A stretch of 64,000 nt of DNA from Sphyrna mokarran (Eukaryota): positions 50,344,001-50,408,000 of the forward strand of contig JAGIQG010000007.1 of assembly GCA_024679065.1 (NCBI GenBank), written 5' to 3'. Within the stretch, counting starts at the first letter, position 1. Every line of letters starts with the position of its first letter. This document shows positions 1,440-62,574 of the stretch, piece by piece. The notes beneath the pieces were generated by a model. It had not been told where the DNA came from. It saw only the letters and a program-made list of their open reading frames with translations, and searched no databases. Position numbers and translations under genes: made by a program.

Positions 1440-1945
1440 TTAAAATTCATTTTTGGGACATGAGTGTTGCTGGCTGGGCAGCATTTATTGCCTTTTCCTT
1501 GTTGCCCTTGTTCAGAGGGCAGGTGAGAGTCAACCATGTTGCTGTGGCCCTGGAATCACCTGCAGGTGATCCAAAGTAAGGATGGCAGATTTCCTTCCCT
1601 AAACAACATTAGTGAACCAGATGGGTTTTTCTGACAATAGTTTCGTGATGTAGAGATGCTGGCATTGGACTGGGTAAACACACAAGTCTGACAACACCAG
1701 GTTTAAATCCAACTGATTTATTTGATAGTAAATACTATCAAATAAATGGGTTGGATTTAAACCTGGTGTTGTCAGACTTACAATAGTTTCATGGTCATCA
1801 GTAAATTCTTAATTCCATGTTTTTTTTTTATATTGAATTCAAATTTGACATCTGCAGTGGCATGATTTGAATTTGGGTCCCCACAACATTAGCTGAGTTT
1901 CTGGATTTGTAGTCTAGTGATAATACCAATAGGCCATCATCTCCC
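1440..1945 (-). mobile_element. SINE-like repeat of a second family (second copy at 49920-50290, partial + copy near 42770-42940)
   Basis: Long collinear similarity between 1440-1945 and 49920-50290; B-box-like ggattcgaacc in the second copy. Confidence 0.7.
1648..1779 (+). mobile_element. Short fold-back insertion with 14-bp target-site duplication
   Basis: 47-bp inverted arms at 1684-1730 and 1733-1779; TSD acaatagtttc(g/a)tg at 1634-1647 and 1780-1793. Confidence 0.85.
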
Positions 1946-6552: not shown

Positions 6553-7394
6553 TGAGGGCTGCAGAAGGACTTGATAGATTGGCAGAGTGGGCAAAGAAGT
6601 GGCAGATGGGATACAATGTGGAAAAGTGTGAGGTTATGCACTTTGGAAGGAGGAATGGAAGCATAGACTACTTTCTAAATGGGAAAATGCTTAGCAAGTC
6701 AGAAACACAAAGGGATTTGGGTGTCTGTGTTCAAGATTCTCAAGTTCACATGCCGGTTCAGTCAACAGTTAGGAAGGCGAGTGCATTCATGTCAAGAGGA
6801 CTAGAATACAAGAGCAGAGATGTCTTGAGGCTATATACAGCTCTGGTCAGACCCCATTTGGAGTATTGTGAGCAGTTTTGGACTCCATACTAAGGAAGGA
6901 TGTGCTGGACTTGACTTGAAAAGAGTCCAGAGGAGGTTCACAAGAATGATCTGTGGAATGAAGAGCTTGTCTTATGAGGAACAGTTGAGGATTCTAGGTC
7001 TGTACTCGTTGGAGATTAAGATGAGGGAAGATCTTATTGAAACTTGCAGGATGCTGTGAGGCCTGGATAGAGTGGATGTGGAGAGGATGTTTTCACTTCT
7101 AGGAAAAACTAGAAGCAGAGGAAATAACCTCAGACTAAAGGGACAATCCTTTAAAACTGATGAGAAATTTCTTCAGCCAGCGTGGTGAATCTGTGGAACT
7201 CTTTGCCGCAGAAGGCTGTTGAGGTCGGGTTTTGAGCCTCTAAGACAGAGATAGGTTCTTGATTAATAAGGGCTCAGGGATTATGGGGAAAAGCTAGGAA
7301 AATGGAAATGAGAAAAAACATGGCCATAATTGAATGGCAGAGCAGACTTGATGGGCTGAGTGGCCCAATTCTGCTCCTATGTCTTATGGTCTTA
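6553..7394 (+). mobile_element. CR1 LINE 3' fragment with ordinary short 3' UTR
   Basis: ORFs 6579-6893 and 6868-7059 (KCEVMHFG, LVRPHLEYC); ends in tatgtcttatggtctta. Confidence 0.9.
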
Positions 7395-8800: not shown

Positions 8801-9178
8801 TACATATTATACATCATGCAAATGTCTGCAATGACTCTGAATTTTGTTTGAAACTGACGTGAGCATTGTGATTTCCATGCAGAAAGGCTATATTGCTGAG
8901 CACAAAGGGTCAGCTTAACAGCTAGGTGCACCAGAAAGTCCTAGCGTAAGAAACATTTGTTCATGCCTAAATGCAGTAGGTTGGGAATCATTTCTCAATA
9001 TTCATGAGTGTTCAGGCAATTAGCATAGAAATGTTTAGAATATTATATTCACAACTTGTCTATTCATGGATGAGAAGGGAATGGTTTAGTTAGGAGGGGC
9101 ATTGCTTTTTATTTTGGTCGGCACAACATCGAAGGCCGAAGGGCCTGTTCTGTGCTGTATTGTTCTATGTTCTATGTT

Positions 9179-11838
9179 CATAGATCATAGAACCCTACAG
9201 TACAGAAGGAGGCTCTTCAGCCATTCGAGTCTGCACCAATCACAATCCCATCCAGGCCCTACCCCCATACCTCTACATATTATACCCTCTAACCTACACA
9301 TCCCTGAACACTAAGGGGCAATTTCTTAGCATGGCCGATCAACCTAACCCACACATCTTTGGACTGAGAGGAAACCAGAGTACCTGGAGGAAACCTGTGC
9401 AGACACGAGGAGAATTAATTATTAATTTTTTTTTTTATTAAGCAACACAGCACGGGAAACAGGCCCTTCGGCCCAACGAGCCCGCGCCGCCATCATACCA
9501 AATACATTATCCTATTTTAATATTCCTATATAATAATATATATATTATTTCTAATATGGAAAATTTTCACCATAGGGGCAATTTGTTTCCCAATCAGCCT
9601 AAGAGCGAATTTTTGGGTTGTGGGAGGAAACCGGAGTGCCCGGAGAAAACCCACGCAACCACGGGGAGAACGCGCAAACTCCCGCAGACACCGGCCCAAT
9701 TCCCAAGTGTCTGCACAGCCACATCGATAGTCTCTGAGCTGTCATGGTGCCCTTCAGGTGGTCCACATAAAGCACTCATATACGACATGAGGTACCAGGC
9801 AACCCATGAATCAACATCCAAGAGCTGTACCCGCACCACCTGCCGAATGCATGCTCAAATTATGGACCGAATTACCTGTGGAAAAAAGCCGTAGTTTAAC
9901 AGTCCTAATATATCCCTCTATCTGCATACCGCTCATGTGGCTGTCCAAGAGACCCTTAAACAGCCCCAGCGTGCCTGCTCCCACCACCTTACTCGGCAGT
10001 GCATTCCACACCCCCACTACCCGTTGTGTGAAAAACTGCCCTCTAATATTCGTCCTATACATAGCCCCCCTCACCCTATGGCCATGACCTCTCGTCCTAT
10101 TCATTTCTAAAGGTGGAAAAAGTTTACCTCCATTTACTCTATCTATACCCCTTATAATCTTATACACCTCTATGAGATCCCCTCTAAGCCGACGTCTTTC
10201 AAGGGAAAAAAACCCCAGTCTATCTAATCGTTCCTCATAGGACAGTCCTTCCATACCAGGCAGCATCCTGGTAAACCTCCTCTGCACTCTCTCCCAGGAC
10301 TCCACATCCTTCCGATAGTACGGAGACCAGAACTGGGCGCAGTATTCCAAGTGAGGCCTAACCAAAGTTGTATACAACTGCAACATCAAACTCCTACTCT
10401 TATATTCTATACCCTTTTCTATGAAAGCTAACATACGATACGCCTTCTTTGTCACCTTCTCCACCTGTGAGGACACCTTCAGAGACTTGTGAACCTGCAC
10501 CCCCAAGTCTCTCTGCGTCGCTATGCTCCTTATAGTTTTACCTTTTATCCTATAATTCTCTTCTACATTTTTCCGGCCAAAATGCATCACCTCGCATTTT
10601 TCCGGATTAAATTCCATTTGCCATCTATCTGCCCAATCTACCAACCTGTCTATGTCCTGTTGTATTGCCTGACACTGCTCTTCTGTACCCACCAATCCAA
10701 GCATCTTGGTGTCATCAGCAAATTTGCTGATCTCACCACCTACCCCAACTTCCAAGTCGTTTACGTAGACCACAAATAGAAGAGGACCTAGTACTGAGCC
10801 TTGTGGCACTCCACTAGTGACAGGCTTCCAGCCGGAAAAAAAGCCTTCCACTATTACCCTCTGTCTCCTCCTCCCGAGCCAGTTCTCGACCCATCTACAT
10901 ACCCGACCCTGTATCCCATGCGCCTTCAACTTCTCTATCAGTCTACCATGAGGAAACTTGTCAAACGCCTTACTGAAATCCATGTAGACGACATCAACAG
11001 CATGTCCTTCATCAACTGTTTTTGTCACTTCAAAAAATTCCACTAGATTTGTAAGACAAGACTTCCCCTTGACGAAGCCATGCTGCGTATCCCTGATCAG
11101 ATCAGATCGCAGCGCTCCAGATGCTCATACATCCTGTCCCTAAGGATCCTCTCCATTAGCTTACCTATAACTGAAGTCAAGCTCACCGGCCTATAGTTCC
11201 CTGGGTGATCCCTCTGACATTTTTTAAACAACGGTACTACGTTTGCTATCCTCCAGTCCTCTGGGACCTCACCTGTGTCCAAGGAAGAGACAAAGATTTG
11301 CGTCAGAGGCCCAGCCAAGTCTTCCCTCAACTCCCTTAGCAGCCTGGTGTAAATGCCATCAGGCCCCGGAGCTTTATATGTCTTTAAGCTGCCTAACAGC
11401 CCCAACACCTCTTTCCTCGTAATCCTTATTTCCCTCAACCAATCCTCAACTTTGTCAACATCACGCACAGACATCTGTCCAGTCTCCTGCGTGAATACCG
11501 ACGCAAAGTATTCATTCAGGATCTCCCCCATTCCCTCAGGCTCTAAGCATAGATCCCCTCCTCTGTCCCTAAGAGGTCCAATCTTGCCTCTAACCATCCT
11601 TTTGCTCCTTACCTAGGTGTAAAATGCCTTTGGATTTTCCTTAATCCTACCTGCCAGAGCCACCTCGTGGCCCCTTTTTGCCTTTCTAATACCCCTTTTA
11701 AGATCCCGTCTACACTCTCTATAAGCTTCCAGCGCTATCTAATGTGCAAACTCCACACAGTGGTTCAAGTTGGGAATCGAACTCAGGATCCTGGAGCTGT
11801 GAAGCAGCAGTGCTAACCACTGTGCTACCGTGCCGCCC
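9179..11838 (-). mobile_element. tRNA-derived V-domain SINE (shark HE1-like), split into 9179-9415 and 11741-11838
   Basis: Head GGGCGGCACGGTAGCACAGTGGTTAGCAC (A box) and GAGTTCGATTCC (B box) at 11838-11770; the body continues at 9415 across the LINE. Confidence 0.85.
9416..11740 (-). mobile_element. 5'-truncated young CR1 LINE with the same composite 3' UTR, inserted into a SINE
   Basis: ORFs 9811-11043 and 11097-11597 encode RT. Visible lesions are an ATCAG duplication near 11096-11105 and a TAG near 11613. Ends in an A-rich tail (T run 9426-9436). Confidence 0.93.
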
Positions 11839-13068: not shown

Positions 13069-13265
13069 GTAATTAATGAATTTAATTGAATTCTTTTGCA
13101 TTACTTTTCCTGCTGAAGTTACATTTTGACATTATCAGAATAAATATTAAAACTTTCAGATATACGTTAGATGGTTAGCTTTTTCTTATTGAGATATTGC
13201 CTTAAACACTAATTTTGACATGTAAGCATTTATAAAGCTCTTAAGGGTGGGGGGGGAAGGATCAC

Positions 13266-24255: not shown

Positions 24256-24944
24256 GTAGGTATTTTTCTCATTATATGATTAGCCTGTTGTAGTTAATTA
24301 GAAATGTGCTGGTGCACTATTGTTTTACCCACTTGCGTTGGATAGTCAGAACTACATTGATCTTTTCCTCTTTCATTCAATGCAGAGTGTCTGACTCTAG
24401 AAAGGATTGAGTGGTTAGTTGCTATTCTGAGACATTTGTGCTTGTGCATGTACTGACTTGCAATAATAGTTGTCAGATAAACTCAATGTAACTGAAATGG
24501 ACTGTTATCAGTATGTTTAATTTCAGAAACAGATGCTTCAAAATCCTTGTTGGAATATGATTCAAAAGATGAAAAATTTGCTTTGCAATAGACCAACAAC
24601 TGAAAAACGTAAAATGGCATTTAGCCCCCTGGAGATTTTCTGTCAAAATTCGTACAAATATGAGAGTTTTGCATTCAAATTCAAGTAACCTTTTCCATTA
24701 CACTAATCGCTATTTTCCCATCCTTTCTTGATGCAGTCATGATATCAGAGGACTAATGTACCTTTTGACGGTAAACTGAATAGTTAAAGGCCAGTCAACC
24801 TAACATCAATAGTGGGCAAGTTTTTGGAGTAAAGCAAATTCTGAAGTATTCATTTACAGAGGCAAATATCAATTGTTGAAAGTTAGCATTCTTTTGTTAA
24901 GAAAAAGTAGTGTCTGACTTATTTGAATTTTTCTGAGGCGGTTG

Positions 24945-25262
24945 ATGAACAGCACGACAGCTCAGTGACTATCACTGTTGCTGTGCAGATACAGGGATTT
25001 GGGCCAGTATCTGTGGAGTTTGAGCATTCTCCCCATGCTTGTGTGGGTTTTCTCCGGGTGCTCTGGTTTCTTGCCACACCCCAAAGATGTGCTCTTAAGC
25101 TGATTGGCGCAACAAATTGACCCTGAATAGTCTCTCCAAATTTGGCTCCAGTGCAGATTTCTGTAAATATAGACAAGGGTTATGGAGGGAAGTGAGAATG
25201 TTAAAATGGCGGCGCGGGCTCGTTGGACCAAAGGGCCTGTTTCCCGGGTTGTTTTGTTCTTT
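24945..25262 (+). mobile_element. Isolated 3' module (degenerate V-SINE body + tail) of the composite CR1 family
   Basis: Aligns with the reverse complement of 56979-57295 and 9441-9754, and shares their diagnostic substitutions. Confidence 0.85.
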
Positions 25263-25600
25263 GTTAGTATCGCTGCCTCTGAGCGCCAGGAACCCAGGTT
25301 CGATTCCAGTTTTAAGTGACTGTGTGGACTTTGCATGTTCTTCCTATATTTATGTGGGTTTCCTCTGGGTACTCTGTTTCCTCTCATAGTTAAAGGATGT
25401 GCAGGTTAGGTGGGTTGGCAATGTAAATTTTCCCCTTACTTTTCAAAAGTGTATGGGTTAAGTGGATTAGCCATGGTAAATGCCCAGGGTTACAATATAA
25501 GATGGAGGGAAGGGCCTGAATGGGATGTGCCTTTGGAGAATTGGTGCAGATTTGATGGACTGGATGACCTCTTTCTGACTGGGCTTCTAGGGTTCTGTCT
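25263..25600 (+). mobile_element. HE1-like V-SINE, 5'-clipped
   Basis: B box GGTTCGATTCC, V-type core GTGGGTTTCCTCTGGGTACTC, degenerate CR1-type tail. Confidence 0.75.
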
Positions 25601-32401: not shown

Positions 32402-33315
32402 CCATCGTCAAACATGAGTGGAAAGGTGAGTGGAAAAGCGAATTGCATGGAGGGCGTGGAAAGTCTGCAGAGAGATCTGGATTGACTAAGTGAGTGGACG
32501 AGGACCTGGCAGATGGAGTATAACTTCAGCAAATGTGAGGTTATCCACTTTGGTAGAAATAATAGAAAGGATTATTATTTAAAGGGTGAAAAGCTGCAGA
32601 TGATACAGTGCAGAGGGACCTGGGGGTCCTTGTGCACGAATCGCAGAAACCCAGTCTGCAGGTGCAGCAGGTGATCAGGAAAGTGAATAGAATGTTGGCC
32701 TTTATAGCAAGGAGGATAGAATACTGAAGCAGGGAGGTCTTGCTGCAACTTTACAGGGCACTGATGAGGCCACAACTGGAATACGGTGTGCAGTTTTGGT
32801 CCCCTTATGAAAGAATATATTGGCCTTGGAGGGAGTACAGAGAAGGTACCGGCTGATACCAGAAATGAGAAGGTTAGCTTATGAAGAGAGATTGAATGGG
32901 TCTGTACTCATTAGAGTTTAGAAGGCTGAGGGGGGATCTTACAGAGACATGTAAGTAATGAAGGGGCTAGATAGGTAGAGAAAGATTCTTCCCGCCTAGA
33001 AAGGAAAACAGAATTGGAGAGCACAGTCTCTCAAAATGGGGCGGGGGGGGGGTGTGCAGTTTAGAACAGAATTGAGCAGGAACTTCTTCACTCAAAGGGT
33101 GGTGAATCTTTGGAATTCTCTGCCCATTGAAGTGGTGGAGGCTACCTCGTTGAATATATTTAAGTCAAGGATAGATAGATTTCTGATAGACAAGGGAATT
33201 AAGGGGTTAATGGGGAGAAAGTGGAACTGATCCACTTCAGATCAGCCATGATCTTATTGAATGGCGGGGCAGGCTCAAAGGGCTAGATGGCCTACCCCTA
33301 TTTCTTATGTTCTTA
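32402..33315 (+). mobile_element. CR1 LINE 3' fragment
   Basis: Encodes LQRDLD..W..WQMEYN..KCEVIHFG and FFTQRVVNLWNSLP; ends in tttcttatgttctta. Confidence 0.9.
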
Positions 33316-35360: not shown

Positions 35361-37180
35361 TTGCCATCACATTGCATTTCTGAAGTTTATAATATTAAAG
35401 TTCCTTACATATATAGAATTATCTAATTGTAATATTGAAATAATGACTGTGACTAACCTTGCTAATGTAGCTTTTTTATAGGGAGGGGTGTATGTATTAT
35501 TTGCTCCTCGCAGTCATAACTCCATGTCTATTCTATTTGTTTTGCTTATGTTTTAACTCCCCACCCTCCACTCCTGATTCTGCATCAGTGCATATGAAAA
35601 ATAATTCTAAATTTGTGTGAGCTGCATATGCCAAAACTCCACAGCCCCTAATGCCTACACTTGCAAAATGATTTTTCCATTGGGCTTACTATCTTACTGG
35701 TGTGCAATTGCTTTGTCCTTTGCTGCAGTGATGCACTTCAATTCTTGCTGCCTTCCAAATTGATGCTCCAATGTAACCCCCACAATGTTTAAGTCTCACA
35801 TCTCCTTCTTTCTCACAAATGCTCTGTTCGTTTAACTGTCTCAAATACAAGCATATAAAATGTTGGGTAGCAAGAAAGATTTGTGTTTATTGATTACCTT
35901 TCATAACAAATGGACGTTCCAAACTACTGTACAGTTAACTTTTTTAAATTTTAATTACCATTGTAGTATACAAAAAATGACAAATTGCATATAGCAAATT
36001 CCACAAACACAACTGTGTTCATGACTGAAATAGGCAACCTTGTCCTTTTCATGAAGGAATAGATATTGGTCAAGACAACAGTGATAATCTCCTGCATTTT
36101 GATCTTCTACATTCACCTAGGACAAGTGGGGCCTCACATTAATATTTCACCTGAAAGATGGCACATTCAACATTGCAGCTAGGCTGGAATGCCAGCCTAG
36201 ATTGGTGTATGCAAGTCTTATGGGTTGAAATGATATCTGAGTTGGTAAATGTGATTAGAACAATTTGCTCGCATGGAGGGAGAGTACTGATGTAAACTGA
36301 GCCAAATGGCCTTTGTTGTTCTTAGTTCACTGCAAACCTGAGAACCCTGCCTCCTATGAAATACTTTCATTGTCTAGATGAGGATAACCGGGATCATTGT
36401 TACTTCAAACATAAAAATATGAAAGTTGTTAGAGGTACCCCCACTGTGCTGTAACAATCCTCATCAATAGACTCAACACTAAAATCAATTCAGTGGCGTG
36501 AAGTTAGGATTGTTGCTTATAGTTTCCCACCAAAATCCTGAAAGTGTTAAGGTTAGTGAATTCTGGTGTAAGTGAATGAGTAATGCCTTCATAATTAACA
36601 AGCAGCCCTTCTGGCCCTTGCAAGTTTAATATTTCATTACTTTGAAAGTTACCATATGTTGAAGATTTTTAAATAAAAATTTCTCATCTCTTGATTCTTT
36701 TTCTTTTTCAATCTTTATTTTGCTTTATATATCTTATGATTTAGACTTGCATGTTACAGCAAGGATTCTGCAGTCTGGTTGAAGAGCCTTGCTGTTTCTT
36801 GTCATGATTGCACACAATGCTAGTGCTCTGTAGTGTGCTGTTCTGGATCAGACACCAGAGTTAAGAAACTTTATGGGCAACTCTTCTTTTTCTGTCTTCC
36901 CCCACCCATTTGAGTGAGTTTTCCACATAGACAGAGAAGGATTCCTTCATATTTGGGCAGTGCAGTTGGAGCACACCAAAGCACTACTCTGGCACCTGGG
37001 CCACAACTGTCTCCTGCTCCAGGCCCCTTACTTACTGATTTCTCTCTAGTTTGTTGCTGATAGGAGTAAACCAGCCTGATGGGATCTGAGCAGCTTAACT
37101 GCATTTTGAAATGCCCATCAGATGAATATCCAGGTTCAAAGGGCCACATCGAGTTTATAAGTCTGCTTGAAATTGAAGGT

Positions 37181-37348
37181 AAGAATTTAGCAACACCAAT
37201 TTTAAATCCAACCGATTTATTTGATAGTAAAATTGCGAGCTATTTTACTATCAAATAAATCGGTTGGATTTAAAATTGGTGTTGCTAAATTCTTACTGAG
37301 TTCTTACTACCCCAGTCCAACGCCGGCATCTTTACATCATGACTACTA
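37181..37348 (-). mobile_element. Second copy of the fold-back insertion with 14-bp TSD
   Basis: Perfect 55-bp arms at 37179-37233 and 37242-37296; TSD ttgaaattgaaggt at 37167-37180 and 37349-37362. Confidence 0.88.
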
Positions 37349-39380
37349 TTGAAATTGAAGGTGCCAGAGCAGTGCTTTGGTGTACTTGGGCAGAACTGGC
37401 AGGAATCCTTCATTTATGTGGAAAACTTGCTCAAATCTGTATGTAACAATTCATCCAACTATATGGCTGATTCAAGTTGTGCATAGCTGGCCATAGATAA
37501 AATTGGGAATGGGGTGGTTAAAGGAGCATCACATACATCCAGTGTATGTTACATCTATCATGCAACAGCTCATTACTCTTGCAGAAGTCGAGTAAGTGAT
37601 TTTTTTAACTTTACTTTGGAGCAGGGCTGTCTGGCCAGTAATAATTTGTTCACTTATTATAAGTAGTGCTCCCACAGATCCATTTAAAATCTCTGGTTCC
37701 TTTGTGAAACTTCATAAAATCAACTAGAAATACAATGTGAAGTCTCATCATATGTACGTTCTATAAATGGAACTACGTATTTTTGTCTAATTCTATCATT
37801 GGCTGAGCATTTTGAATCCAGTAATTTTACATAAGCTATCCTTTTTAACATTATTTTCATTTTGTGCTGTGTTTTAAATCTACTACTCTTTTATATTTAT
37901 TCCAAAGTGCACCCTTTACTGCTCTCCTATTTGGTACTCTGACACATTGCTTTTCCTCAATACTTGCTTCCCCTACCTTTTTCTCCCCAAGATTTCATTC
38001 TGCAAACTATTCGCTTCCCACATTCCTGTTGACTGAGTATCTAACAATCCAAAACGTTTGCCTTCCCATCGACTGTCTTTTGTCTACTATTTGCTACCCT
38101 CTCTTATGAACGTTACCTATGGAATGCTCTAAACTTACTTAGTACTCTCGATACCAGTTATTTCTATCTTTCCTACAATGTCCTCCCAATAACCACTTAA
38201 TCCAGTCTTTCAAGTACTATCAACAGTACTACCTATTTCTTCACTGTTCACCTATGCTCCATTACTTAGTACTGTACCCAACTGCCTTTATTTTCCCCAA
38301 AATTTTGAATATTCACACACAATAATTCCATTCTTCCTAACATTCCTCTTCTGAGGAGGTGCTCCACTACAATTTCTTCACTTTCTGCCTAAAACAAATT
38401 CCCTGGTCCCTTTCTCGTGGGTTTTTTCTGGCATCAGACCAAATTCCAAGTATCCTAATTTACACACTAAATCTGTCTAGCGATTCCTAAGAGGTGGTAC
38501 TGCCTTTGTCGCATTTCGCAGCAGTTGTCTTCTGAAGAATACTAGCAGAGGGGCTGGATATACGTAAGGTAGTGGTGATTGGTAAGTCACACAATCAAAA
38601 AGCATGACATGAGACAGGGAAACTCTCATGATTTCACAGCGGACAGATGCATAGCAAACTGTTACTGAACTAAAATCGTAAATTCGATGTTTTGTTTATA
38701 CTGATGGACTTGTGCTGATCTGATCCTGACTGGGGCAGTAAGTCTGTCTTATGCCTTGAGTGCAATGTTAAATATTTAACCACGATAGATGCTTCTAATT
38801 ATTTATTCTGTGATTTTCAAATTCCTTTATGGGACATGCCCATCACTGGCTAGCCCCTTAACTTTCAGCTGTCCTAGAGAAGTTAATAGATGTCCAGTCT
38901 GTGTCAAGGCTGGTATGGGTCATATTCAGTTTGTACCTCCTTTTACCTTCTCTCAAACCATGGAAAGAGTAGCCTGGAAAGGTTTCTGGCTTATTGGTAT
39001 GTGAATAAACACTTCAGTATGGTAAAGGAAAGATGTCTACTTTTGAAATTCCAGTCCCTTCCAGAAGGAGGTTTCTTGAGGGGGGAGTTAGGGAAGGTAT
39101 TAAAGATACTTAAGCAACTTCATAAACAAAGTGCTTTTTTTATAATTTTGTGCAAGAGTGAGATAATGCTTTTTCTTCAGTTGATGTTTAACTGACTTCC
39201 TATTTATCTCCATTACTCACAACCTGACTCTCATTCATGCAGCATGTTTATTTTGCTTTCTAGCTAAGTGAAAAGTCATTAATAAAGATTTATGGTTATC
39301 AGGTTTTCCATCGAAATGTTCAGCTGCCCATTCAAGAAGAGCCAGCTCTCCTCTAATTGTAATTATTTTCTGATTTAAAG

Positions 39381-49799: not shown

Positions 49800-51457
49800 A
49801 GTTTAAAGTGCTGCTGGTTCCTGTATGAAATCTGAGTTTTTTCTCACTTTTTCAAATGGGAGGTCATGTTAACAAAATTGATTATTTGAGGAGGTGATCG
49901 AGTGTGTAGATGAGGGTAGTTTTTTTTTATTCATTCATGGGACATGGTCATCACTGGCTGGTCAGCATTTATTGCCTATCCCTAGTTGGTGTAGGAGGGC
50001 ACTTAAGAGCCAGCCACATTGCTATGGATCTGGAGTCACATGTAGGTTAGACAAGGTATGGATGACAGATTTCCTTCCTTAAAGACATTAGTGAACCTGA
50101 TGGGTTTTTCTGATAATTGACTGTTTCATGATCATTAGTAGGTTCATAATTCCAGATATTTATTTAATCAAATTCAAATTCCACTACCTACTGTGGCGGG
50201 ATTCGAACCCAGGTCGCCCAAGCATCAGCTGAGCGTGTGAACAATCCGTGTATCTGTCTAGCAACAACACCACTAGGCCATTGCCTCCCCTACATGCAAC
50301 TGATATAGTTTATATGGATTTCAGTGAGGTCTTAGACAAGGTTCCACATGGAATACTGTTAAGAAACATAAAAGCATACAGGATCCAGGATAACATGGTA
50401 AGATGGAGTCAAAACTGGCTTAGTGGTGAGAGACTAGTGATGATTGAGGACTGTTTGTGTGACTGGAGACCAGTGTCCAATGATGTAATTAGTGCTGGGC
50501 CCCTTATTAATTGTAATATATTATATATATATATAAGGATATAGATGAGAACATGAGGAAGAAATGATAATAAGCTTGTGGATGACAAAGATTGGCATAG
50601 TGGTTAATAGTGAGGAAGAAGGTCTCAGATTGCAAGAAGATACAGACAGGTTGATCAGATGGGCAGATCAGTGGCAAAGGGAATTTAACCCTGAAAAGTG
50701 CAAGCTAATGCACTTTGGAAGGAACAAGACAAAGGAGTACTCAACGAATGTCAGGACACCAGGAAGCTCAGAAACAGAAAGATTTGGGGGTGCTTATCCA
50801 CACACCTTTAAAGGCTGTAAAACATGTTAATAGGGTAGTTAAGAAGGCATAAGGGACATTTGCCTTTCAGTTGTGGCACTGATAAGGAGAGAAGAAACAT
50901 TATGTGGATCATACAGAACTTAGTTAGGCCACAGTTGGAGTACTGTGTGTAATTTTGATCATCTCACTACAAGGAGGTTCTGATTGCACTGGGGAGGGTG
51001 CAAAGAAAATTGACCAGGATGTTGCCAGGTGAGCAGCTGAGCAATGAAGCGAAGCTGGATAGACTCAGGTTGTTTTCTTTAGATCAGAGAAGGCTGAGGA
51101 GGGACCTGATTGAGGGATTTGGACAGGGTGGATAGGAAGCAGCTTTTCTCCTTAGTTAAAGGGCCAATAACAAGAGGGCTTAATTTTAAGGTGAGGGGCA
51201 GGAGGTTTACAGGAGATTGAAGGAATTGTTTTTCACTTGGAAAAATAATTTTTCCAATTGAGTCTGAAATGCACTGCCTGGGAGGAAGTAAAGGCAGGAA
51301 ACCTCACAGCCTTTAAAAAGTACATGGATGAATACTTGAAATGCCAACAGTCAAGGCCTCTAGGCCAAATGATGGAAAGAGTGAATAGTGTAGATTTCAT
51401 GTAGTGTTATTGGTGCAAACTTGATGGGCCAAATGGCCACTTCTGTACTGTATGACT
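49800..51457 (+). mobile_element. Decayed CR1 RT/3' fragment
   Basis: ORFs 50248-50544 and 50564-50830 (DIVYMDFS..KVPHG; WADQWQREFNPEKC). Confidence 0.88.
49920..50290 (-). mobile_element. SINE-like repeat (same family as 1440-1945) nested in a CR1 fragment
   Basis: Interrupts CR1 RT sequence between VDEGS and ATDIVYMDFS. Confidence 0.7.
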
Positions 51458-51496
51458 CTATTGTATTAAAGCTTCACAGCTGTTAATATTATGACT

Positions 51497-52280: not shown

Positions 52281-53500
52281 TATAAATATTGCACAACTTA
52301 AAGAACAGAATTCTATGGCATGAAGCACCAGTCACTTCAGTACTGTAACAGGCACCATGAAATCATGGAAAATACTGTATTATTTTGTTACATATGGTAT
52401 CTGGCCTGATATACTTAATGTTACATGTCGAAAATCTCATTCTATACAAGAGATAAGAAGCAATTAGAACATGGAAGTGACAGCAGAACATGTTTATTAA
52501 TACCTAGCAAACAAAATGGACCAGAGTCTGTAAATACGTTTTATAATCTGTGCATCTTTAAACATAGTATCCATTAAGCATTTAGCTCTGACATTGAATG
52601 ACTGGAAAGAAACTGACCTGACAGTACTAGGGGTGTGTGCGTCTGTATGTGTGAGGTGGGGTGGACTTTACCAGAGTTTCTGCTTTTGATTGTCATCAAG
52701 TCATATACACTGGAAAATGCGTATGTTACCAGTGTGAAAGAGATGTCTGCCCCAGCTAGGTAGCCCATTGCACCCCTACTGTCTAATGGGAGACATCACC
52801 AAATTGACTCACGTTGGGGTTCAGAAGCAATGCTTTCAAGAGGGGCTGAAAGAAAGAATAGAAACAAGCCTGAAGGCAACTGAACAGTGCAAAGGAAAAG
52901 CACGGACAGGAAAATCAAGCGCAATGCAAAATTTTAGCAGAGAGAGAAGTAGGAAGATAAAGTTCAAGGGAAGCAGTGATGCTATATTCAAAAGATATAA
53001 AATGTAATTGAGACAAGTTGTTACTTCTGCCTTCAGAGGTGGGAAGCCCACCTGAAAAAGAGGAAGTCCTTGGGAGGCATGGTAGCAGAGTGGTTAGCAC
53101 TGCTGCTTCACAGCTCCAGAGACCTGGGTTTGATTCCCAGCTTGGGTCACTGTCTGTGCGGAGTTACACATTCTCCTTGTGTCTGGATTTTCTTCGGGTT
53201 TCCGGTTTCCTCCCACAGTCCAAAGATGTGTGGGTTAGGTTGATTGGCCATGCTAAATTGCCCCTTAGTGTCCTGAATTGTCCCATTTTGTTTGCTAGGT
53301 ATTAATAAACATGTTCTGCTGTCACTTACATGTTCTAATTGCTCCTTATCTCTTGTATAGAATGAGGTTTTCAACATAGAATCAATATTACATCAGGCCA
53401 GATACTATACGTAACAAAATGATCAGTATTTTTCACGATTTCATAGAGTGCTTTTTACAATACTGAAGTGACTGTTCTTTAAGTTGTGCAAATATTTATA
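52281..53500. repeat. Inverted duplication, arms 52281-52519 and 53283-53500
   Basis: The arms align as reverse complements over about 220 nt with one 23-nt indel. Confidence 0.9.
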
Positions 53501-56279: not shown

Positions 56280-56845
56280 AATTTAAGAGCCGTGGGGTTA
56301 TGCTGCAACTATACCTGACCTTGGTGACCACATCTGGTCATCTCACTATAAGGAGGATATGAAAGCAATGGAGAGAGTGCGGAGGAGATTTACCAGGATG
56401 CTGCCTGGTTTGGAGGATAGGTCTCATGAGGAAAGGCTGAGGGAGATGGAGCTTTTCTCTTTAGAGTGGAGGAGGAAGAGAGGCGACTTAATACAGATTT
56501 ATAAGATGATAATGGGATAGATAGAGTGGACGTGCAGAGACTATTCTTTGGGTGGATGTAACTGTTATAGGGGGCATAATTATAATGTTCATGGTGGAAG
56601 ATATTGGAAGGATGTCCGAGATAGATTCTTTACACAGAGAGTGGTTGGGGTGTGGAATTCACTGCCTGCTTTGACAGTGGAATCGGACACTTTAGGACTT
56701 TTCAAGCAATTAGTCGATAGGCACATGGAGCACACCAGAAAGATAGGGAATGGGATTGCTTGATCTTGGGTTTGGACATAGCTTGGCACAACATTGAGGG
56801 CTGAAGGCCCCGTACTGTGCTGTACTGTTCTACATCTATGTCTAT
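56280..56845 (+). mobile_element. CR1 3' fragment
   Basis: ORF 56548-56763 RFFTQRVVGVWNSLP; tail gggctgaaggccc..tgtactgttcta. Confidence 0.88.
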
Positions 56846-57507
56846 CTCCTCCTCATCCCCTTCACATAGAGATAGGGCTATGCACAAGATACATTCCACA
56901 AGGGATGTCTGGATGTCTTATGAACTGAGTCTGTATTTAATGTTTCTGTATGTATCTGCATCATTAGTAATTTGTTATCAAAGAACAAAACAGCATGGGA
57001 AACAGGCCCTTCGGCCCAACGTGGTGGCAGCACCACCTCGATGTTCCCACCTCTACACGCGATCCCTGTCCATGTTTATAGATCTATGGATTAAAAACCA
57101 AATTTGAGACAATTTAGGGAGAATTTGTTTTGCCAATTAGCCTAAGAGCACATCTTTGGGATGTGGGAGGAAACCGGAGCTCCTGGAGAAAACCCACGCA
57201 AGCACGGGGAGAATGCGCAAACTCCCACAGACACAGGCCCAAATCCATGTATCTGCACAGCACAGCTATAGTCACTGCGCTGTCATGTTGCCCATCAGAT
57301 GGTCCAGGTCAAGCATACACTAACGATGTGAAGCAGTAGGATACTCCTGAAAAAGATCCAAGAGCAGTCCTCTCACGACCCATCGCGTGTATGCCCCTTG
57401 TTAGACAACAAGGTGGACCAAAGCACCTGTAGGATAAAAACAAGTACATCAATATCATCATCTATTTACACCCTTCCCAGGGCCTCCCAAGGCTCATGAT
57501 CCCTATT

Positions 57508-60417
57508 TTAAATCAGTTTTCTATACCCCTCCATTCCCATTCTGTTCATGTGCCCATCTAAGTATTTCTTATATATCTCCAGAGTACCTGCCTCCACCAC
57601 TTTACTTGGTAGCGCATTCCATACCCCCACCACCCTCTGTGTGAAAAAGCTCCCTCTAGCATCCAAATTATACCTTACCCTCCTCACCCTAAGCCCGTGA
57701 CCCCTCGTGCTATTTGAGTCCTTCCTAGGAAAAAGCTTAGCCCTGTTTACTCTATCTACCCCCTTCAAAATCTTGTACGCCTCTATCAGATCTCCTCTAA
57801 GTCTACGACTTTCTAAGGAAAACAGTCCCAATTTGCCTAATCTCTCCTCGTAACTCAGACCTTCCATACCAGGCAGCATCCTGATAAACCTCCTCTGCAC
57901 TCTTTCCAGAGTCTCCACGTCCTTCCGGTAGTAAGGCGACCAGAACTGGACACAGTATTCCAAATGAGGTCTAACCAGCGTTTTATACAACTGCAACATT
58001 AAAGGCCAGCTCTTGTACTCTACACTCCTTCCTATAAAGGCTAGTATACTATATGCTTTCTTCACAACCTTCTCCACTTGCTCTGCCACCTTCAGAGACT
58101 TGTTCACCTGCACCCCCAGGTCCCTCTGCATTTCTATACTCTTAGTAGATCTACCCTTTATCATTTACCTCCCCCCTACGTTTTTTCTCTTGAAATGCAT
58201 CACCTCACACTTATCAGGATTGAATTCCACCTGCCATCTGTCTGCCCAAGCTACCAGCCTATCTATGTCCTGCTGCATCGCCTGACAATGCTCCTCATTA
58301 TCCGCAAGTCCAGCCATCTTTGTATCGTCTGCAAACTTGCTGATCACTCCACTTACTCCCTCTTCCAAGTCATTTATATATATTACTAATAGAAGAGGTC
58401 CCAGTACCGAGCCCTGCGGCACACCACTAGTGACCGACCTCCAGCTAGAGAAACACCCTTCCACTATTACTCTCTGTCTCCTATTATCAAGCCAGTTGCT
58501 TATCCATCTAGCTACCTGTACTTGTATCCCATTTGCCTTGACCTTCTTGACTAACCTCCCATGAGGGACTTTGTCAAACGCCTTACTAAAATCCATATAG
58601 ACAACATCAATGACTCGCCCTTCGTCTACCGTTTTCGTCACCTCCTCAAAAAATTCTACCAGATTTGTAAGGCACGACCTCCCCTTAACAAATCCATGCT
58701 GCGTATCCCTAATCAGATTGCAACACTCTAAGTGCCTATACATCCTATCTCTAAGAATCCCTCCAACAGCTTCCCTACCACTGACGTCAAACTCATCGGC
58801 CTATAATTTCCAGGGTTATCCCTACCACCCTTTTTAAACAACGGTACAACATTAGCTATTCTCCAGTCCTCTGGGACCTCACCTGTGTCTAAGGAAGAGA
58901 CAAAGATTTGCTTCAGAGGCCCAGCAATTTCACCTCGCACCTCTCTAAGCAGTCTGGGATAAATGCCATCAGACCCTGGAGATTTGTCAGTTTTAATACT
59001 ACCTAGAAGCTCTAACACTTCCTCCCTCGGTATGGATATTTCCCTCAACTGGTCCACAGCTCCCTCAGAGACAGGAGCTGTCAACAAGCCCCTCTCCTTC
59101 GTGAATACTGACACAAAGTATTCATTCTGGATCTCCGCCATTCCCTCGGGGTCTAAGCACAATTCCCCTCCTCTGTCCCTAAGAGGTCCAATTTTTCCTC
59201 TAACCACCCTTTTATTCCTAACATAGGAGTAAAAAGCCTTTGGATTTTCCTTAATCCAATCCACCAAAATCATTTCATGCCCTTTTTGCCCTTCTAACTC
59301 CCTGTTTGAGCTCCCTCCTACTCTGTCTATATTCCTTCAATGCTGTCTCGGTTCCCAGCTGCTTCGACCTATCATACGCTTCTCTTTTCTTCCTAACCAA
59401 GTCCTCAATATCCCTAGTAATCCACGGCTCTCTAATCCTACCTTTCCCATCTTTCCTCTTGGCTGGCACGTACTTATCTTGCAACATTTTCAGTATTCCC
59501 TTGAAATAGTCCCACATGCCTAGCGTGGACTTACCCTCAAACAACCGTTCCCAATCAGTTTCCATAAGTCCCTGCCTAATTTGACCGTAGTTAGCCTTCC
59601 CCCAATTCAGCACCCTGCCCCTGGGGCAACAAGCATCCTTTTCTATCTGTATCCTAAAGTAGACAGAATTGTGGTCACTATTAGCCACATGTTCCCCTAC
59701 TACAACATCAACCACCTGCCCTGGCTCACTACTCAGAACTAAATCCAATATAGCCCCTTCTCTAGTCGGGCTAGCCACATACTGTTCCAACGATCCTTCC
59801 AGTACACATTTTACAAATTCCTGCCCATCCAAACCTCCAGCTCTGGGTACTTTCCAATCCACCCTAGGGAGATTAAAATCTCCCACTATAACGACTCTGT
59901 TCTTTCTGCACCTATCCAAAATGTCTTTACACGTGCCTTCTTCAACTGCCCGTGGGCTGTTGGGTGGCCTATAATACACCCCTAGCATAGTAATTGCCCC
60001 CTTTCTATTCCTCAACTCCACCCACAGTGACTCCACTCCTAACTCCTATGTATTGTCCTCCCTCTGCACCGCCGTGATGCTCTCCTTAACTAACAACACC
60101 ACTCCCCCACCTCTTCTGGACCTTTCTCTGTCACGCCTGAAACACTTATACCCAGGAATGTTCAGTTGCCACTGCTCCCCTTCCTTTAACCACGTCTCTG
60201 TCACTGCAACCACATCCAAGTTCCTCGCAAACATTAAGGCCCTAAGTTCATCCGTTTTTCCCGTTACGCTCCTCGCATTGAAACAGACACACTCCAGACC
60301 TCCAAGCCCACTCGGAACCTCTTTCTCCCCGGTGCATCTCTTCTTGTCCAAGCTTACTCTATCACCCATATCGCTCTCTACCGAGAGATCGGTCTCATCC
60401 CCTCCCCCCCTCCACAT
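57508..60417 (-). pseudogene. CR1 ORF2 endonuclease-reverse transcriptase, broken into 5 ORFs
   Basis: ORFs 60046-60417, 59275-60036, 58728-59273, 58165-58743 and 57508-58164 are collinear; one nonsense codon plus frameshifts. Confidence 0.92.
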
Positions 60418-61335
60418 TAGTTTAAATCCTGCCGAAACACTCTAGCTAACCTCCCAGCTAAGATATTCACACCCTTCCCATTTAAGTGTTCCCCATCCCT
60501 TCTATATAGGTGCCTTTCTTTCACAAAGACTTCCCAGTTATCCATAAATATGAAACCCTCTGCCCTACACCAGTCCTTCAGCCACGCATTCAGCTGTAGG
60601 ATCTCATTTCTCCTGGCTCCGCTATTACCCGTGCCTGGAAGCAGACCTGAGATCGCCACCTTCGAGGCCCTGCTCTTCAGCCTACCCCCCAACTCCCTGA
60701 ACTGCCTTCTTATATCCTCCCTGCTCTTCCTTCCTACATCCTTCTCTCCTACGTGAATAATCACATCCGCCTTGGCCGCCCTCCCCCTTCAAAATGCCCT
60801 CTACCCTGTCTGACACATCTTGCACTCCTGCTCCAGGGAGGCAAACTACCATCCTGGAGTCCTGCCTTGGACCACAGAAACGTCTATCTATTCCTTTAAC
60901 CCTCCCATCCCCCACCACTATCTCCCTTCTAGCCCCTTTTCTCCCCTTTGAGGTACTCTGGTCCTTGTGCCTTGCCTTTTTTAACCCTCCGCCCTCGACA
61001 TTTTGGGGGGCTGCCACTGGGGAAGTCTTTGGACTGTCTCCCCTCTCCTTTTCCCCCTCCCTGACAGTAATCCACCTGTAAGGGTCAGGTTTCCCCCCCT
61101 TAGGTTTCGGGTCTGCCACCTTACTTTGCCTCCCTTCCATAATTGCCTCGTTCTCCCTGACTAAAAATGCATCTTCCAACTGGCGCTCTAGTTGCTTGAC
61201 CCGAGCCCTCAGATGCTGCAGCTCCAAACACTTGGTGCATATGTGGACTTTCTGGAGAGGTCTTACCTCCAGGAACTCCCACATGTGACACTGTACACAG
61301 GTGAGGCGTCTTCCCTTAATCCCTGCCATTGTCAT
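60417..61335 (-). pseudogene. CR1 ORF1 (zinc finger/leucine zipper + esterase), one frameshift
   Basis: ORFs 60682-61362 and 60417-60764: CVQCHMWE..CTKC, VVGDGRV, CLPGA, IIHVG, DGEHLN. Confidence 0.85.
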
Positions 61336-62574
61336 GGACACCTTTGGAGGTGTGAATTCCAATGGAAAACCAGTAGCACACTGTGTCTAAGCCTGCTCTA
61401 GCCCAAGCCCTGTGAGCCAAAGCCCTTGTATCTCTCACTCTGCTTCCCTATTCACTCCGCTGCCCGCTGTCTACTGCCACTTTCTTTTTATACTCTCTTC
61501 ACTCTTTCTGTAAATTAAGGAGACCATTAGTTTAAGCTTGAATGTGATGGTTTGATTGTGTAACATGTTTCGAATAGACTGTCACATACCATTGCCAGAG
61601 TCAGTGGGATTTATCCATCCCATTGTAGTGAATGGAGATTTGGCCGGGTGCCAAATTTTCTGGCCTCGCTGCAGTGGGAGTATGGTGTGAACAGCTGGTA
61701 AAATTGCACCCAAGTTTTTGTTTGATACAAATTACTATAGTTAAGGAACAATTACTACTCCCATCGTCTGTTAAAGAAATTGCAATATACAAAATTGCTG
61801 CAGATTTTGGTTCACAGAATCAGTCTGCTTATGGAAGCTACCTTTTTGGCTGGAATATGACTTACATTCCCAAACATTCCCTATCAGCTGCCTTTTCTCT
61901 ACGAAAAGCTATTCAAGTCTGTAAGTCTAACCTCATCGTATTTGAATCATAACTTGGGCTACTGCACAAATGTACTTTGGAGGACAAGTAACTAAAACTC
62001 TAAGTAATATTCCACAAATAATTTCATTACAGATCTATATAAGTTAATTTTTTTAATGAATTATCCAGGGGTGCACTTGAGTATTTCCGCCCATCTGCCA
62101 CTAAAACAACCTTTGTTACCACCTGACTGAATTATTCAAATAATCTCCTGGCTGGCTTCCCTTTCTCCTGAAACATTAGGTCATTCAATGCTTCTCTGCT
62201 CTTCATATTCTATCACCCCTGTACTCACTCATTAATATGGGCTCCTGAGTCTCCCCCCAATGCCCTAGATTTCAAGTTCTCATCTTCAAGTCCTGTCATG
62301 TCCTATCTCTTCCTTGCCACTACATCTTTCTTCATACCCCTTTTCCATAGTCTTGGTTTCTGACTGTGGAATTTCAGTTTTATATTTCTCTACAAGTGAT
62401 CATAAAATTGACTGCAATCTCGTGTGTCTTGGCCAGTTTGATTTGGATTTGCTCCGTACACTCTGCCCTCATAAGTGAACCAGTATTAAGTCTTTGGGTA
62501 GAAGGCACTACATAATTGTTGTTCTGATAAATATAGTTCTTCCTCTTTTTTACTTACTTTACCTTTTAAACATT

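What the first reader, a model, noticed from the sequence alone, without database searches (positions are those of the whole stretch)
56979..57507. CR1 LINE lineage that carries a captured V-SINE inside its own 3' UTR (LINE-SINE chimera propagating as one unit)
Seen: in both the 56979-61495 and 9416-11740 elements the SINE-like block lies between the end of RT and the terminal CR1 tail (GGGCCGAAGGGCCTGTTTCCC). On the sense strand it reads GGGCA(A/C)CATGACAGC(G/T)CAG(T/A)GACTAT..GCTGTGCAG..TGGGCC..GTGTCTG..GGAGTTTGCGC..TTCTCCCCGTG..GCGTGGGTTTTCTCC..CTCCGGTTTCCTCCCACA. This aligns with the free SINEs in this window (GGGCGGCACGGTAGCACAGTGGTTAGCAC...), but the A box is decayed and the B-box segment is deleted. 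The two LINEs are clearly diverged in ORF2 (HGRLIEKLKAHGIQGRVCRWVENWL vs HGRLVKKVKANGIQVQVARWISNWL) yet share the same deletion and diagnostic changes (GCTCTTAGGCT, AACAAATT). Other CR1 fragments here (6553-7394, 32402-33315, 56280-56845) have a short UTR without it. Established: SINEs normally borrow LINE tails, and the function of the conserved V domain is unexplained. Inference: an ancestral LINE acquired a whole SINE, lost its Pol III promoter and retained the V domain through subfamily divergence. That reverses the usual direction and suggests the V domain benefits the retrotransposition RNP. I cannot confirm that this is undescribed.
Basis: partly seen in the sequence, partly recalled or inferred. 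Interest (0 to 1): 0.85.

Follow-up and report, generated by a model that had tools for sequence, protein, structure and literature searches.

The report
LINE retrotransposon keeping a captured SINE
A family of self-copying DNA elements, probably from a shark or ray, once picked up the front half of a small parasitic element, lost that piece's on-switch and kept the rest almost unchanged as a folded stretch of RNA, which offers a way to test what this mysteriously conserved piece does.

Summary
Confirmed and extended. All three share an 18-nt deletion of the B box and 21 diagnostic substitutions, and form one clade against free V-SINEs (bootstrap 100). E2 inserted as one unit, with a 3-bp duplication. 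Between E1 and E2 the block is 86% identical, against 56% at four-fold sites (p=5e-10), and its flanks are barely alignable. This points to purifying selection on the block. The block holds the published Vhc subdomain (29 nt identical to a bivalve SINE). The SINE's own tail was not found, so 'whole SINE' is overstated. New here: the three copies fold alike (four-way junction, then Vhc hairpin), and a ~135-nt hairpin of unknown origin lies upstream in E1 and E2, with 4 two-sided compensatory pairs. Best reading: an old capture kept as a cis-acting RNA structure that helps the LINE RNA. The function is inferred, from three copies in one window. Ten literature searches found no report of it; Repbase, Dfam and a 2026 consensus set could not be checked.

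The parts
56971..61509 (-). E1, full-length CR1 LINE (dead copy: frameshifts and stops in ORF1 and ORF2). The 5' end is approximate; possible 4-bp duplication TTAC
60420..61386 (-). E1 ORF1 in two frames: N-terminal Cys-x2-Cys pairs (no Pfam hit) and a C-terminal GDSL/SGNH esterase-like domain
   Evidence: PF13472 E=1.8e-7, just under its curated cut-off
57511..60441 (-). E1 ORF2: AP endonuclease plus reverse transcriptase
   Evidence: PF03372, PF14529, PF00078
57436..57507 (-). E1 spacer 1 after the stop; 75 nt in E1 against 14 nt in E2 as sliced, not alignable
57296..57429 (-). E1 long irregular RNA hairpin of unknown origin (E2 counterpart 9878-9755); E1 has an extra side stem at 57413-57396
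57241..57293 (-). E1 remnant of the tRNA-derived SINE head with a decayed A box; the 18-nt B-box deletion lies at 57241/57240
57198..57240 (-). E1 5' part of the V domain; with the head it forms a predicted four-way junction (57291-57198)
57163..57197 (-). E1 Vhc hairpin with a symmetric pyrimidine internal loop
57113..57162 (-). E1 SINE-derived post-V segment with lineage diagnostics; end of SINE homology
57032..57112 (-). E1 variable spacer 2 (41-57% between copies; no significant match to free SINEs or short UTRs)
56971..57031 (-). E1 terminal CR1 stem-loop tail
9416..11740 (-). E2, 5'-truncated CR1 of a diverged subfamily with the same UTR; 3-bp duplication ATT (11743-11741 / 9415-9413); A-rich end
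9755..9878 (-). E2 long hairpin
9572..9752 (-). E2 SINE-derived block; 9651-9623 is identical over 29 nt to the Yoldia limatula Vhc consensus
24943..25263 (+). E3, third copy, 5'-truncated 0-4 nt upstream of the SINE head; same deletion, diagnostics and tail; abutted at its 3' end by a free SINE
11741..11838 (-). 5' half of the free V-SINE into which E2 inserted (intact A and B boxes)
9178..9415 (-). 3' half of that free V-SINE, with its own, different tail

Best explanation
SHOWN: one CR1 lineage carries, at a fixed place in its 3' UTR, the head, V domain and ~45 further nt of a tRNA-derived V-SINE, copied as part of the LINE. STRONGLY INFERRED: a V-SINE entered the UTR of an ancestral master element once, in sense orientation (by insertion or template switch). 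The B-box arm was deleted (18 nt, between two TGGGT repeats) and the A box decayed. The rest has since been under purifying selection in at least three sublineages. INFERRED: what is selected is an RNA structure in the Pol II LINE transcript: a ~135-nt hairpin, a four-way junction of head and V domain, the Vhc hairpin, then the RT-recognised tail. It acts in cis to raise the yield of new copies, most likely as a binding platform for a host or ORF protein that stabilises the RNA or helps load ORF2p. By extension this is also what the V domain does for SINEs. Losing the B box plausibly stopped the UTR from launching a competing Pol III parasite (inference).
For: E1 vs E2: block 153 of 177 identical (86%); four-fold sites 88 of 157 (56%); third positions 356 of 577; second positions 494 of 577 (86%). 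Fisher p=5e-10 against four-fold sites, 0.9 against second positions. Spacer 2 is 41-57% and spacer 1 is unalignable, which argues against a recent swap of the whole UTR. E1-E3 are 81-86% alike in the block but 69-75% to the free consensus, and form a clade (UFBoot 100; 9 rows; 3 fragmentary free copies left out). 21 diagnostic substitutions plus the deletion. E1+E2 ORF2 form a clade in a DNA tree of 8 window copies (UFBoot 93) and, with two unnamed database proteins, in a 48-row protein tree (SH-aLRT 98). Folded separately, E1 and E2 share 37 hairpin pairs (11 varying, 4 two-sided) at 67% identity; the maxima in 71 overlapping ORF2 windows are 24, 4 and 1. RNAalifold covariation term -4.25; z = -4.4 and -2.9. 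Three of three copies fold into the four-way junction plus Vhc hairpin on their own. 7 pairs there are canonical in all three copies but not in the free consensus. Vhc was already predicted to be a hairpin with an internal loop in invertebrate SINEs (PMC4758252).
Against: Only three dead copies from one window, and only two cover the long hairpin. No functional data. Folding one copy and testing the other was not decisive for the hairpin: 12 of 20 and 11 of 17 changed pairs were kept, against an ORF2 95th percentile of 64%, and 4 two-sided pairs against a maximum of 5 in 282 folds. Hairpin identity is not significantly above four-fold sites (87 of 130; p=0.07). Neutral decay of a perfect inverted repeat is disfavoured but not excluded: simulated P(at least 35 of 50 pairs kept) 0.0002-0.28 and P(at least 4 two-sided) 0.02-0.19, by rate and transition bias. 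For the SINE block the covariation term is unfavourable (+1.55), 12 of 51 pairs are broken or gapped in one copy, and single-copy z-scores are only -1.7 to -2.5. At 81-86% identity a shared fold is partly trivial, and the '7 created pairs' count is partly circular. Sequence constraint could equally be at the DNA level. The other CR1 lineages in the window spread without the block, so it is not essential.
Confidence: 0.65

Rival explanations
1. Neutral passenger kept alike by gene conversion or template switching: the block was captured once and later homogenised between LINE subfamilies, with no benefit.
For: V domains have been proposed to ease exchange of 3' ends (PMC4758252). Three copies cannot exclude conversion tracts. 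E2 sits in a free SINE that matches the window consensus at 168 of 191 sites, so part of the 14% difference is decay after insertion and the masters may have been nearly identical in the block.
Against: The conserved stretch ends where the SINE homology ends, and both flanks are diverged in the copies that cover them. All three pairwise identities are similar (81-86%). Conversion from free SINEs is excluded by the 21 diagnostics.
Confidence: 0.12
2. The block is selected as DNA (a factor-binding, enhancer or insulator element in the V domain that helps transcription of the LINE), and the folds are incidental.
For: Kojima 2018 suggests that conserved bodies may bind transcriptional regulators. 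Covariation in the SINE block is weak. Vhc is conserved in primary sequence as far as molluscs.
Against: Fixed orientation. The changes specific to the lineage cluster where they extend the helix left by the deletion. The adjacent hairpin shows two-sided changes at 67% identity.
Confidence: 0.1
3. The structure is a processing or stalling module. The tRNA-like junction is cut at its 5' edge, or the long hairpin stops RT or hides a 3' splice site, so that ~320-nt promoterless 3' units are released and copied.
For: E3 starts within 0-4 nt of the head, at the foot of the long hairpin. E1 and E2 both keep a pyrimidine tract plus CAG|G at the start of the hairpin; such sites occur 33 times in 128 kb of both strands.
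Against: A single truncation point. CAGGT is also explained by base pairing. The T arm, which RNase P recognises (recalled), is the part deleted. ARAGORN found 0 tRNA genes in the window.
Confidence: 0.08
4. The Vhc internal loop is an ENE-like element that forms a triple helix with an A-rich 3' end and protects the RNA.
For: A pyrimidine-rich symmetric internal loop between two G+C helices. E2 ends in an A run. An ENE is reported to stabilise Evade retrotransposon RNA (PMC12501189, search listing).
Against: The loops hold only 4 and 3 consecutive U and are interrupted by C. E1 and E3 have no A tail. No Rfam match.
Confidence: 0.04
5. Opposite direction: this LINE UTR is the donor from which the V domain of SINEs arose.
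For: LINE parts did give rise to other SINE bodies (RTE and Vingi 5' UTRs; PMC5786205).
Against: Vhc occurs in bivalve, gastropod, arthropod and cnidarian SINEs. The lineage is nested among cartilaginous-fish CR1s, and the other CR1 ends in the window lack the block. A tRNA-head remnant precedes it (significant in E3).
Confidence: 0.02
6. Independent SINE insertions into separate LINE copies.
For: At least 9 free V-SINE fragments lie in the 64 kb.
Against: Same position, same deletion and 21 shared changes in 3 of 3 copies; no SINE tail; E2 has a duplication around the whole unit.
Confidence: 0.01

Closest known systems
HE1 V-SINE / HER1 CR1 LINE pair of sharks and rays (listed in PMC3747384 Table 1; original papers not read)
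   Same: A tRNA-derived V-SINE and CR1 LINEs in a probable elasmobranch genome. The free SINE tail resembles by eye the tail of the CR1 at 51400-51460.
   Different: The known sharing is of the tail only. Here the head and V domain sit inside an autonomous LINE, without the B box and ahead of a different CR1 tail.
Vhc subdomain of V-SINEs (PMC4758252)
   Same: Near-identical sequence (29 nt identical in E2 to the Yoldia consensus) and the same predicted hairpin with an internal loop.
   Different: Reported only in non-autonomous Pol III SINEs. That paper did not find the hairpin preserved in fish V-SINE folds, whereas it forms in 3 of 3 copies here.
Cassandra, Ajax and Helenus TRIMs (PMC10886601, passages)
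   Same: A retroelement lineage thought to have taken up a SINE, or a small-RNA sequence, and kept it.
   Different: Those are non-autonomous LTR elements that keep the Pol III boxes and lose the RNA fold. This is an autonomous LINE that lost the boxes and seems to keep the fold.
LINE-derived SINE bodies and RTE-1_DAn (PMC5786205)
   Same: Exchange of modules between LINEs and SINEs; one LINE family is noted to hold a tRNA-like sequence.
   Different: The flow described is LINE to SINE. No LINE with a V domain is described in the parts read, and the origin of the conserved bodies is left unknown.
ENE of the Evade retrotransposon (PMC12501189, search listing only)
   Same: A structured RNA element that promotes mobility of its own retrotransposon in cis.
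   Different: An LTR element with a U-rich triplex motif; no sequence relation; the loops here fit poorly.

Membership tests
CR1 clade LINE (E1, E2) | ORF2 with AP endonuclease and RT | tested here: met
   PF03372, PF14529, PF00078 in E1; E2 is 74% identical over 577 aa
CR1 clade LINE (E1, E2) | ORF1 with an esterase domain, as in vertebrate canonical CR1 (PMC13343379) | tested here: met
   PF13472 E=1.8e-7, 32.3 bits against a cut-off of 32.9
CR1 clade LINE (E1, E2) | ORF2 groups with vertebrate CR1 | tested here: met
   Nested among named shark and ray proteins, with bird proteins as outgroup; no L2 outgroup was included
CR1 clade LINE (E1, E2) | 3' stem-loop tail shared with other CR1 | tested here: met
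   Tail alignment, 57-66% to C13, C30 and C9p except E3-C30 55%; folds as a stem-loop in E2
V-SINE superfamily (origin of the block) | V domain / Vhc subdomain | tested here: met
   Read by eye against supplement Fig. S4 of PMC4758252: 29 of 29 nt to Yoldia, 30 of 31 to Strombus (E2)
V-SINE superfamily (origin of the block) | tRNA-derived head 5' of the V domain | tested here: inconclusive
   Colinear remnant; significant against free heads in E3 only; 58-69% to the free consensus
SINE as a unit (E3 or the block itself) | Intact Pol III A and B boxes | tested here: not met
   B box deleted in 3 of 3 copies, A box with 2 or more mismatches (box patterns recalled)
SINE as a unit (E3 or the block itself) | Own tail and target-site duplication | tested here: not met
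   No SINE tail inside E1 or E2; the duplication surrounds the whole of E2. In E3 the 3' flank is hidden by another SINE
HE1 / HER1 families | Identity to the published consensus | not testable with these tools
   PMC155270 not held; no repeat database on hand
Pol III TRIMs (Cassandra/Helenus type) | LTRs and conserved Pol III boxes | tested here: not met
   Non-LTR element, boxes lost
Known structured RNA family (Rfam 15) | Match at gathering score | tested here: not met
   Only sub-threshold miRNA-hairpin hits: 13.4 bits against 54, 25.1 against 80, 15.6 against 50
ENE triple-helix element | U-rich internal loop that binds an A-rich strand | tested here: inconclusive
   Loop seen in the folds but short and interrupted by C; binding not testable

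The most novel reading that the evidence does not exclude
An autonomous LINE domesticated its parasite's conserved body. It removed the Pol III promoter, rebuilt the tRNA-like head and V domain into a compact four-way junction, added a long hairpin, and has kept this RNA module in several subfamilies because it is the host-factor docking device that V-SINEs use to compete for reverse transcriptase. The ancient conservation of the V domain would then reflect a selfish RNA function that can be moved between elements, not a service to the host. The foot of the hairpin may also shed promoterless SINE-like 3' units such as E3.
Probability: 0.3. Interest if true: 0.85.

Novelty: new variant of a known kind. 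Interest (0 to 1): 0.68.

Why it matters
Why SINE 'highly conserved domains' stay conserved for hundreds of millions of years is described as unexplained (PMC5499810; PMC4824008). The three standing ideas are partner interaction, recombination hot spot and host benefit. Here the V domain is as constrained as second codon positions inside an autonomous Pol II element that has no Pol III promoter and needs no tail swapping. That separates the ideas and favours a function for the element's own RNA. It also supplies a natural alignment with structural variation and a simple deletion test. In practice, such UTRs would be masked as free V-SINEs and inflate SINE counts (inference).

Tried and rejected
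Protein search with a UTR translation of E1: no candidates. Full-library search with an E2 UTR translation: 3 weak hits, covering the V domain only and without the lineage's diagnostics. 0 of 120 ORF2 relatives extend into the UTR. So no copy outside the window was seen with its UTR. A conserved ORF in the UTR was rejected: frames and stops differ between E1 and E2. Origin of the long hairpin: no match elsewhere in the window (best non-self, non-partner E=1.3) and none in Rfam. Origin of spacer 2: no significant match to 3 free SINEs or 3 short UTRs (best 31 of 500 shuffles), so insertion and template switch cannot be told apart. The source of the tail is unresolved: E1/E2 have no close short-UTR sister in the window (ORF2 DNA 51-61%). 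The ungapped head identities printed are out of register and were ignored. The bacterial, phage and plasmid collections were not used because they do not hold vertebrate DNA. The supplement of the 2026 CR1 survey has 0 hits for two short motifs, 'V-SINE' and 'UTR'; its consensus sequences are on Zenodo and were not seen. One supplementary file each of PMC4824008 and PMC4758252 could not be searched. PMC6501411 gave no precedent in the passages read.

Full report
Setting. The window (39% G+C) holds many retroposon fragments. The closest named relatives of the ORF2 come from sharks and rays (Stegostoma 68%, Mustelus 65%), so the host is probably an elasmobranch (inference). E1 is a full-length CR1, about 61509-56971 on the minus strand, with an esterase-type ORF1 and an endonuclease-RT ORF2, broken by stops and frameshifts. 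E2 (11740-9416) is 5'-truncated. It inserted into a free SINE whose halves lie at 11838-11741 and 9415-9178, with a 3-bp duplication around the whole unit.

In all three copies the block has the same 18-nt deletion, which removes the B box between two TGGGT repeats. It also has 21 substitutions shared by 3 of 3 copies and rare (20% or less) among the free SINE fragments. The three copies are 81-86% alike over the block and 69-75% to a consensus of 9 free fragments. They form a clade with UFBoot 100 in a tree of 9 rows; 3 fragmentary free copies were left out. The other CR1 3' ends displayed have short UTRs without it. E1 and E2 ORF2 group together in a DNA tree of 8 window copies (UFBoot 93; 2 fragments left out). 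They also group with two unnamed database proteins in a 48-row tree built from the first 60 of 120 hits that aligned over at least 170 residues (SH-aLRT 98). The UTRs of those proteins are unknown. The block is a real V domain: E2 9651-9623 is identical over 29 nt to the Vhc of the Yoldia SINE consensus in the supplement of PMC4758252 (compared by eye). The head remnant is significant on its own only in E3. SINE homology ends about 45 nt after Vhc. The SINE's distal body and tail were not found, and the tail is nearer to the short-UTR CR1s at 13265 and 30357 than to the free SINE tail. 'Whole SINE' is therefore too strong.

Selection. E1 and E2 are 74% identical in protein (425 of 577) and 56% at four-fold sites (88 of 157), but 86% in the block (153 of 177). 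That equals second codon positions (494 of 577); Fisher p=5e-10 against four-fold sites. The spacers on both sides are unalignable or 41-57% alike, so a recent swap of the whole UTR does not explain it. Conversion from free SINEs is excluded by the diagnostics. Conversion limited to the block between LINE subfamilies cannot be excluded with three copies.

Structure. E1, E2 and E3, each folded alone, give the same arrangement: a four-way junction closed by the 5' end of the head and the V domain, then the Vhc hairpin with a symmetric pyrimidine loop. The free consensus supports 41 of these 52 pairs. Seven pairs are canonical in all three LINE copies but not in the free consensus, three of them in the helix left by the deletion (partly circular). 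Against this: the alignment's covariation term is +1.55, 12 of 51 pairs are broken or gapped in one copy, and z-scores are only -1.7 to -2.5. Separate folds share 37 pairs, 11 varying and 4 changed on both sides; the maxima in 71 overlapping ORF2 windows are 24, 4 and 1. RNAalifold gives 43 pairs, none broken, covariation term -4.25; z = -4.4 and -2.9. A cruder test (fold one copy, score the other) stayed within the ORF2 range. Simulated neutral decay of a perfect inverted repeat is disfavoured but not excluded. Rfam has no family for either part, and the hairpin has no source in the window.

How it most likely works. Shown: one capture, loss of the promoter, copying as part of the LINE, and strong constraint on the block. 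Inferred: the constraint acts on an RNA module in the Pol II transcript that raises the LINE's yield in cis, most likely as a protein-binding platform for RNA stability or ORF2p loading (confidence 0.65). Rivals are passive homogenisation (0.12), a DNA-level element (0.10), a processing or stalling site (0.08), an ENE-like triplex (0.04), the reverse direction (0.02) and independent insertions (0.01). The processing idea rests on E3 starting within 4 nt of the head and on an acceptor-like site at the foot of the hairpin in E1 and E2. The short-UTR CR1 lineages show that the module is not essential.

Comparison with print. Ten library searches found no report of a LINE with a V domain in its UTR; the library lacks most subscription papers. 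What I saw of each paper: PMC5786205, abstract and parts 1-4 of 5 of the text: LINE-to-SINE flow only, a tRNA-like sequence noted in RTE-1_DAn, origin of conserved bodies unknown. PMC4758252, passages, part 1 of 2 of section 11 and supplement passages. PMC4824008, passages and a supplement search. PMC5499810, part 1 of 6. PMC13343379, passages and a supplement search. PMC3747384, PMC7245038, PMC10886601 and PMC6501411, passages. PMC12501189, search listing. The original V-SINE paper was not held and the HE1/HER1 paper was not read. The nearest precedent is Cassandra/Ajax/Helenus, where a SINE-like piece is kept in an LTR for its promoter and not its fold, the mirror image of this case. Repbase, Dfam, the Zenodo consensus set and two unsearched supplementary files may hold the architecture, annotated or not.

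Verdict. A real, old LINE-SINE chimera under selection, with an added conserved hairpin. It is a new variant of known retroelement chimerism, as far as could be checked. Its value is that it makes the function of the V domain testable. Limits: three dead copies, one window, no functional data. Interest 0.68.

Noticed in passing
window 24943-24947 (+): E3's 5' truncation falls 0-4 nt upstream of the SINE head, at the foot of the long hairpin: a possible RT stall or processing point (one case).
   Followed up: partly
window 57443-57426 and 9892-9875 (-): A pyrimidine tract plus CAG|G, like a 3' splice site, at the same place in E1 and E2; 33 such sites in 128 kb of both strands; also explained by base pairing.
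   Followed up: partly
window 9897-9814 (-): E2's ORF2 frame runs about 28 codons further than E1's, into the hairpin; a close database relative (P0027, 88%) stops earlier, so this is probably particular to this copy.
   Followed up: partly
window 1635-1790 and 37179-37351: Two related near-perfect palindromes (94% over 96 nt, 97% over 118 nt), MITE-like; not hit by the CR1 hairpin search.
   Followed up: no
window 52329-52519 and 53283-53474: An inverted pair, 88% over 194 nt, with a free V-SINE between the arms.
   Followed up: no
window 51400-51460 (+): The tail of this CR1 looks like the free V-SINE tail, so this lineage may be the SINE's partner (by eye).
   Followed up: partly
window 9445-9416 (-): E2 ends in AATAAA plus an A run, while E1 and E3 end in a T-rich stretch without an A tail.
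   Followed up: no
window 61386-60685 (-): The ORF1 N-terminus has two Cys-x2-Cys pairs, zinc-finger-like, with no Pfam hit.
   Followed up: no
protein P0007: A protein labelled as a Proteus mirabilis reverse transcriptase is 65% identical to this CR1 and nests among shark-type CR1s; probably host DNA in that assembly.
   Followed up: no
window 1445-1638 and 49929-50117: Another dispersed repeat pair, 77% over 194 nt, not identified.
   Followed up: no
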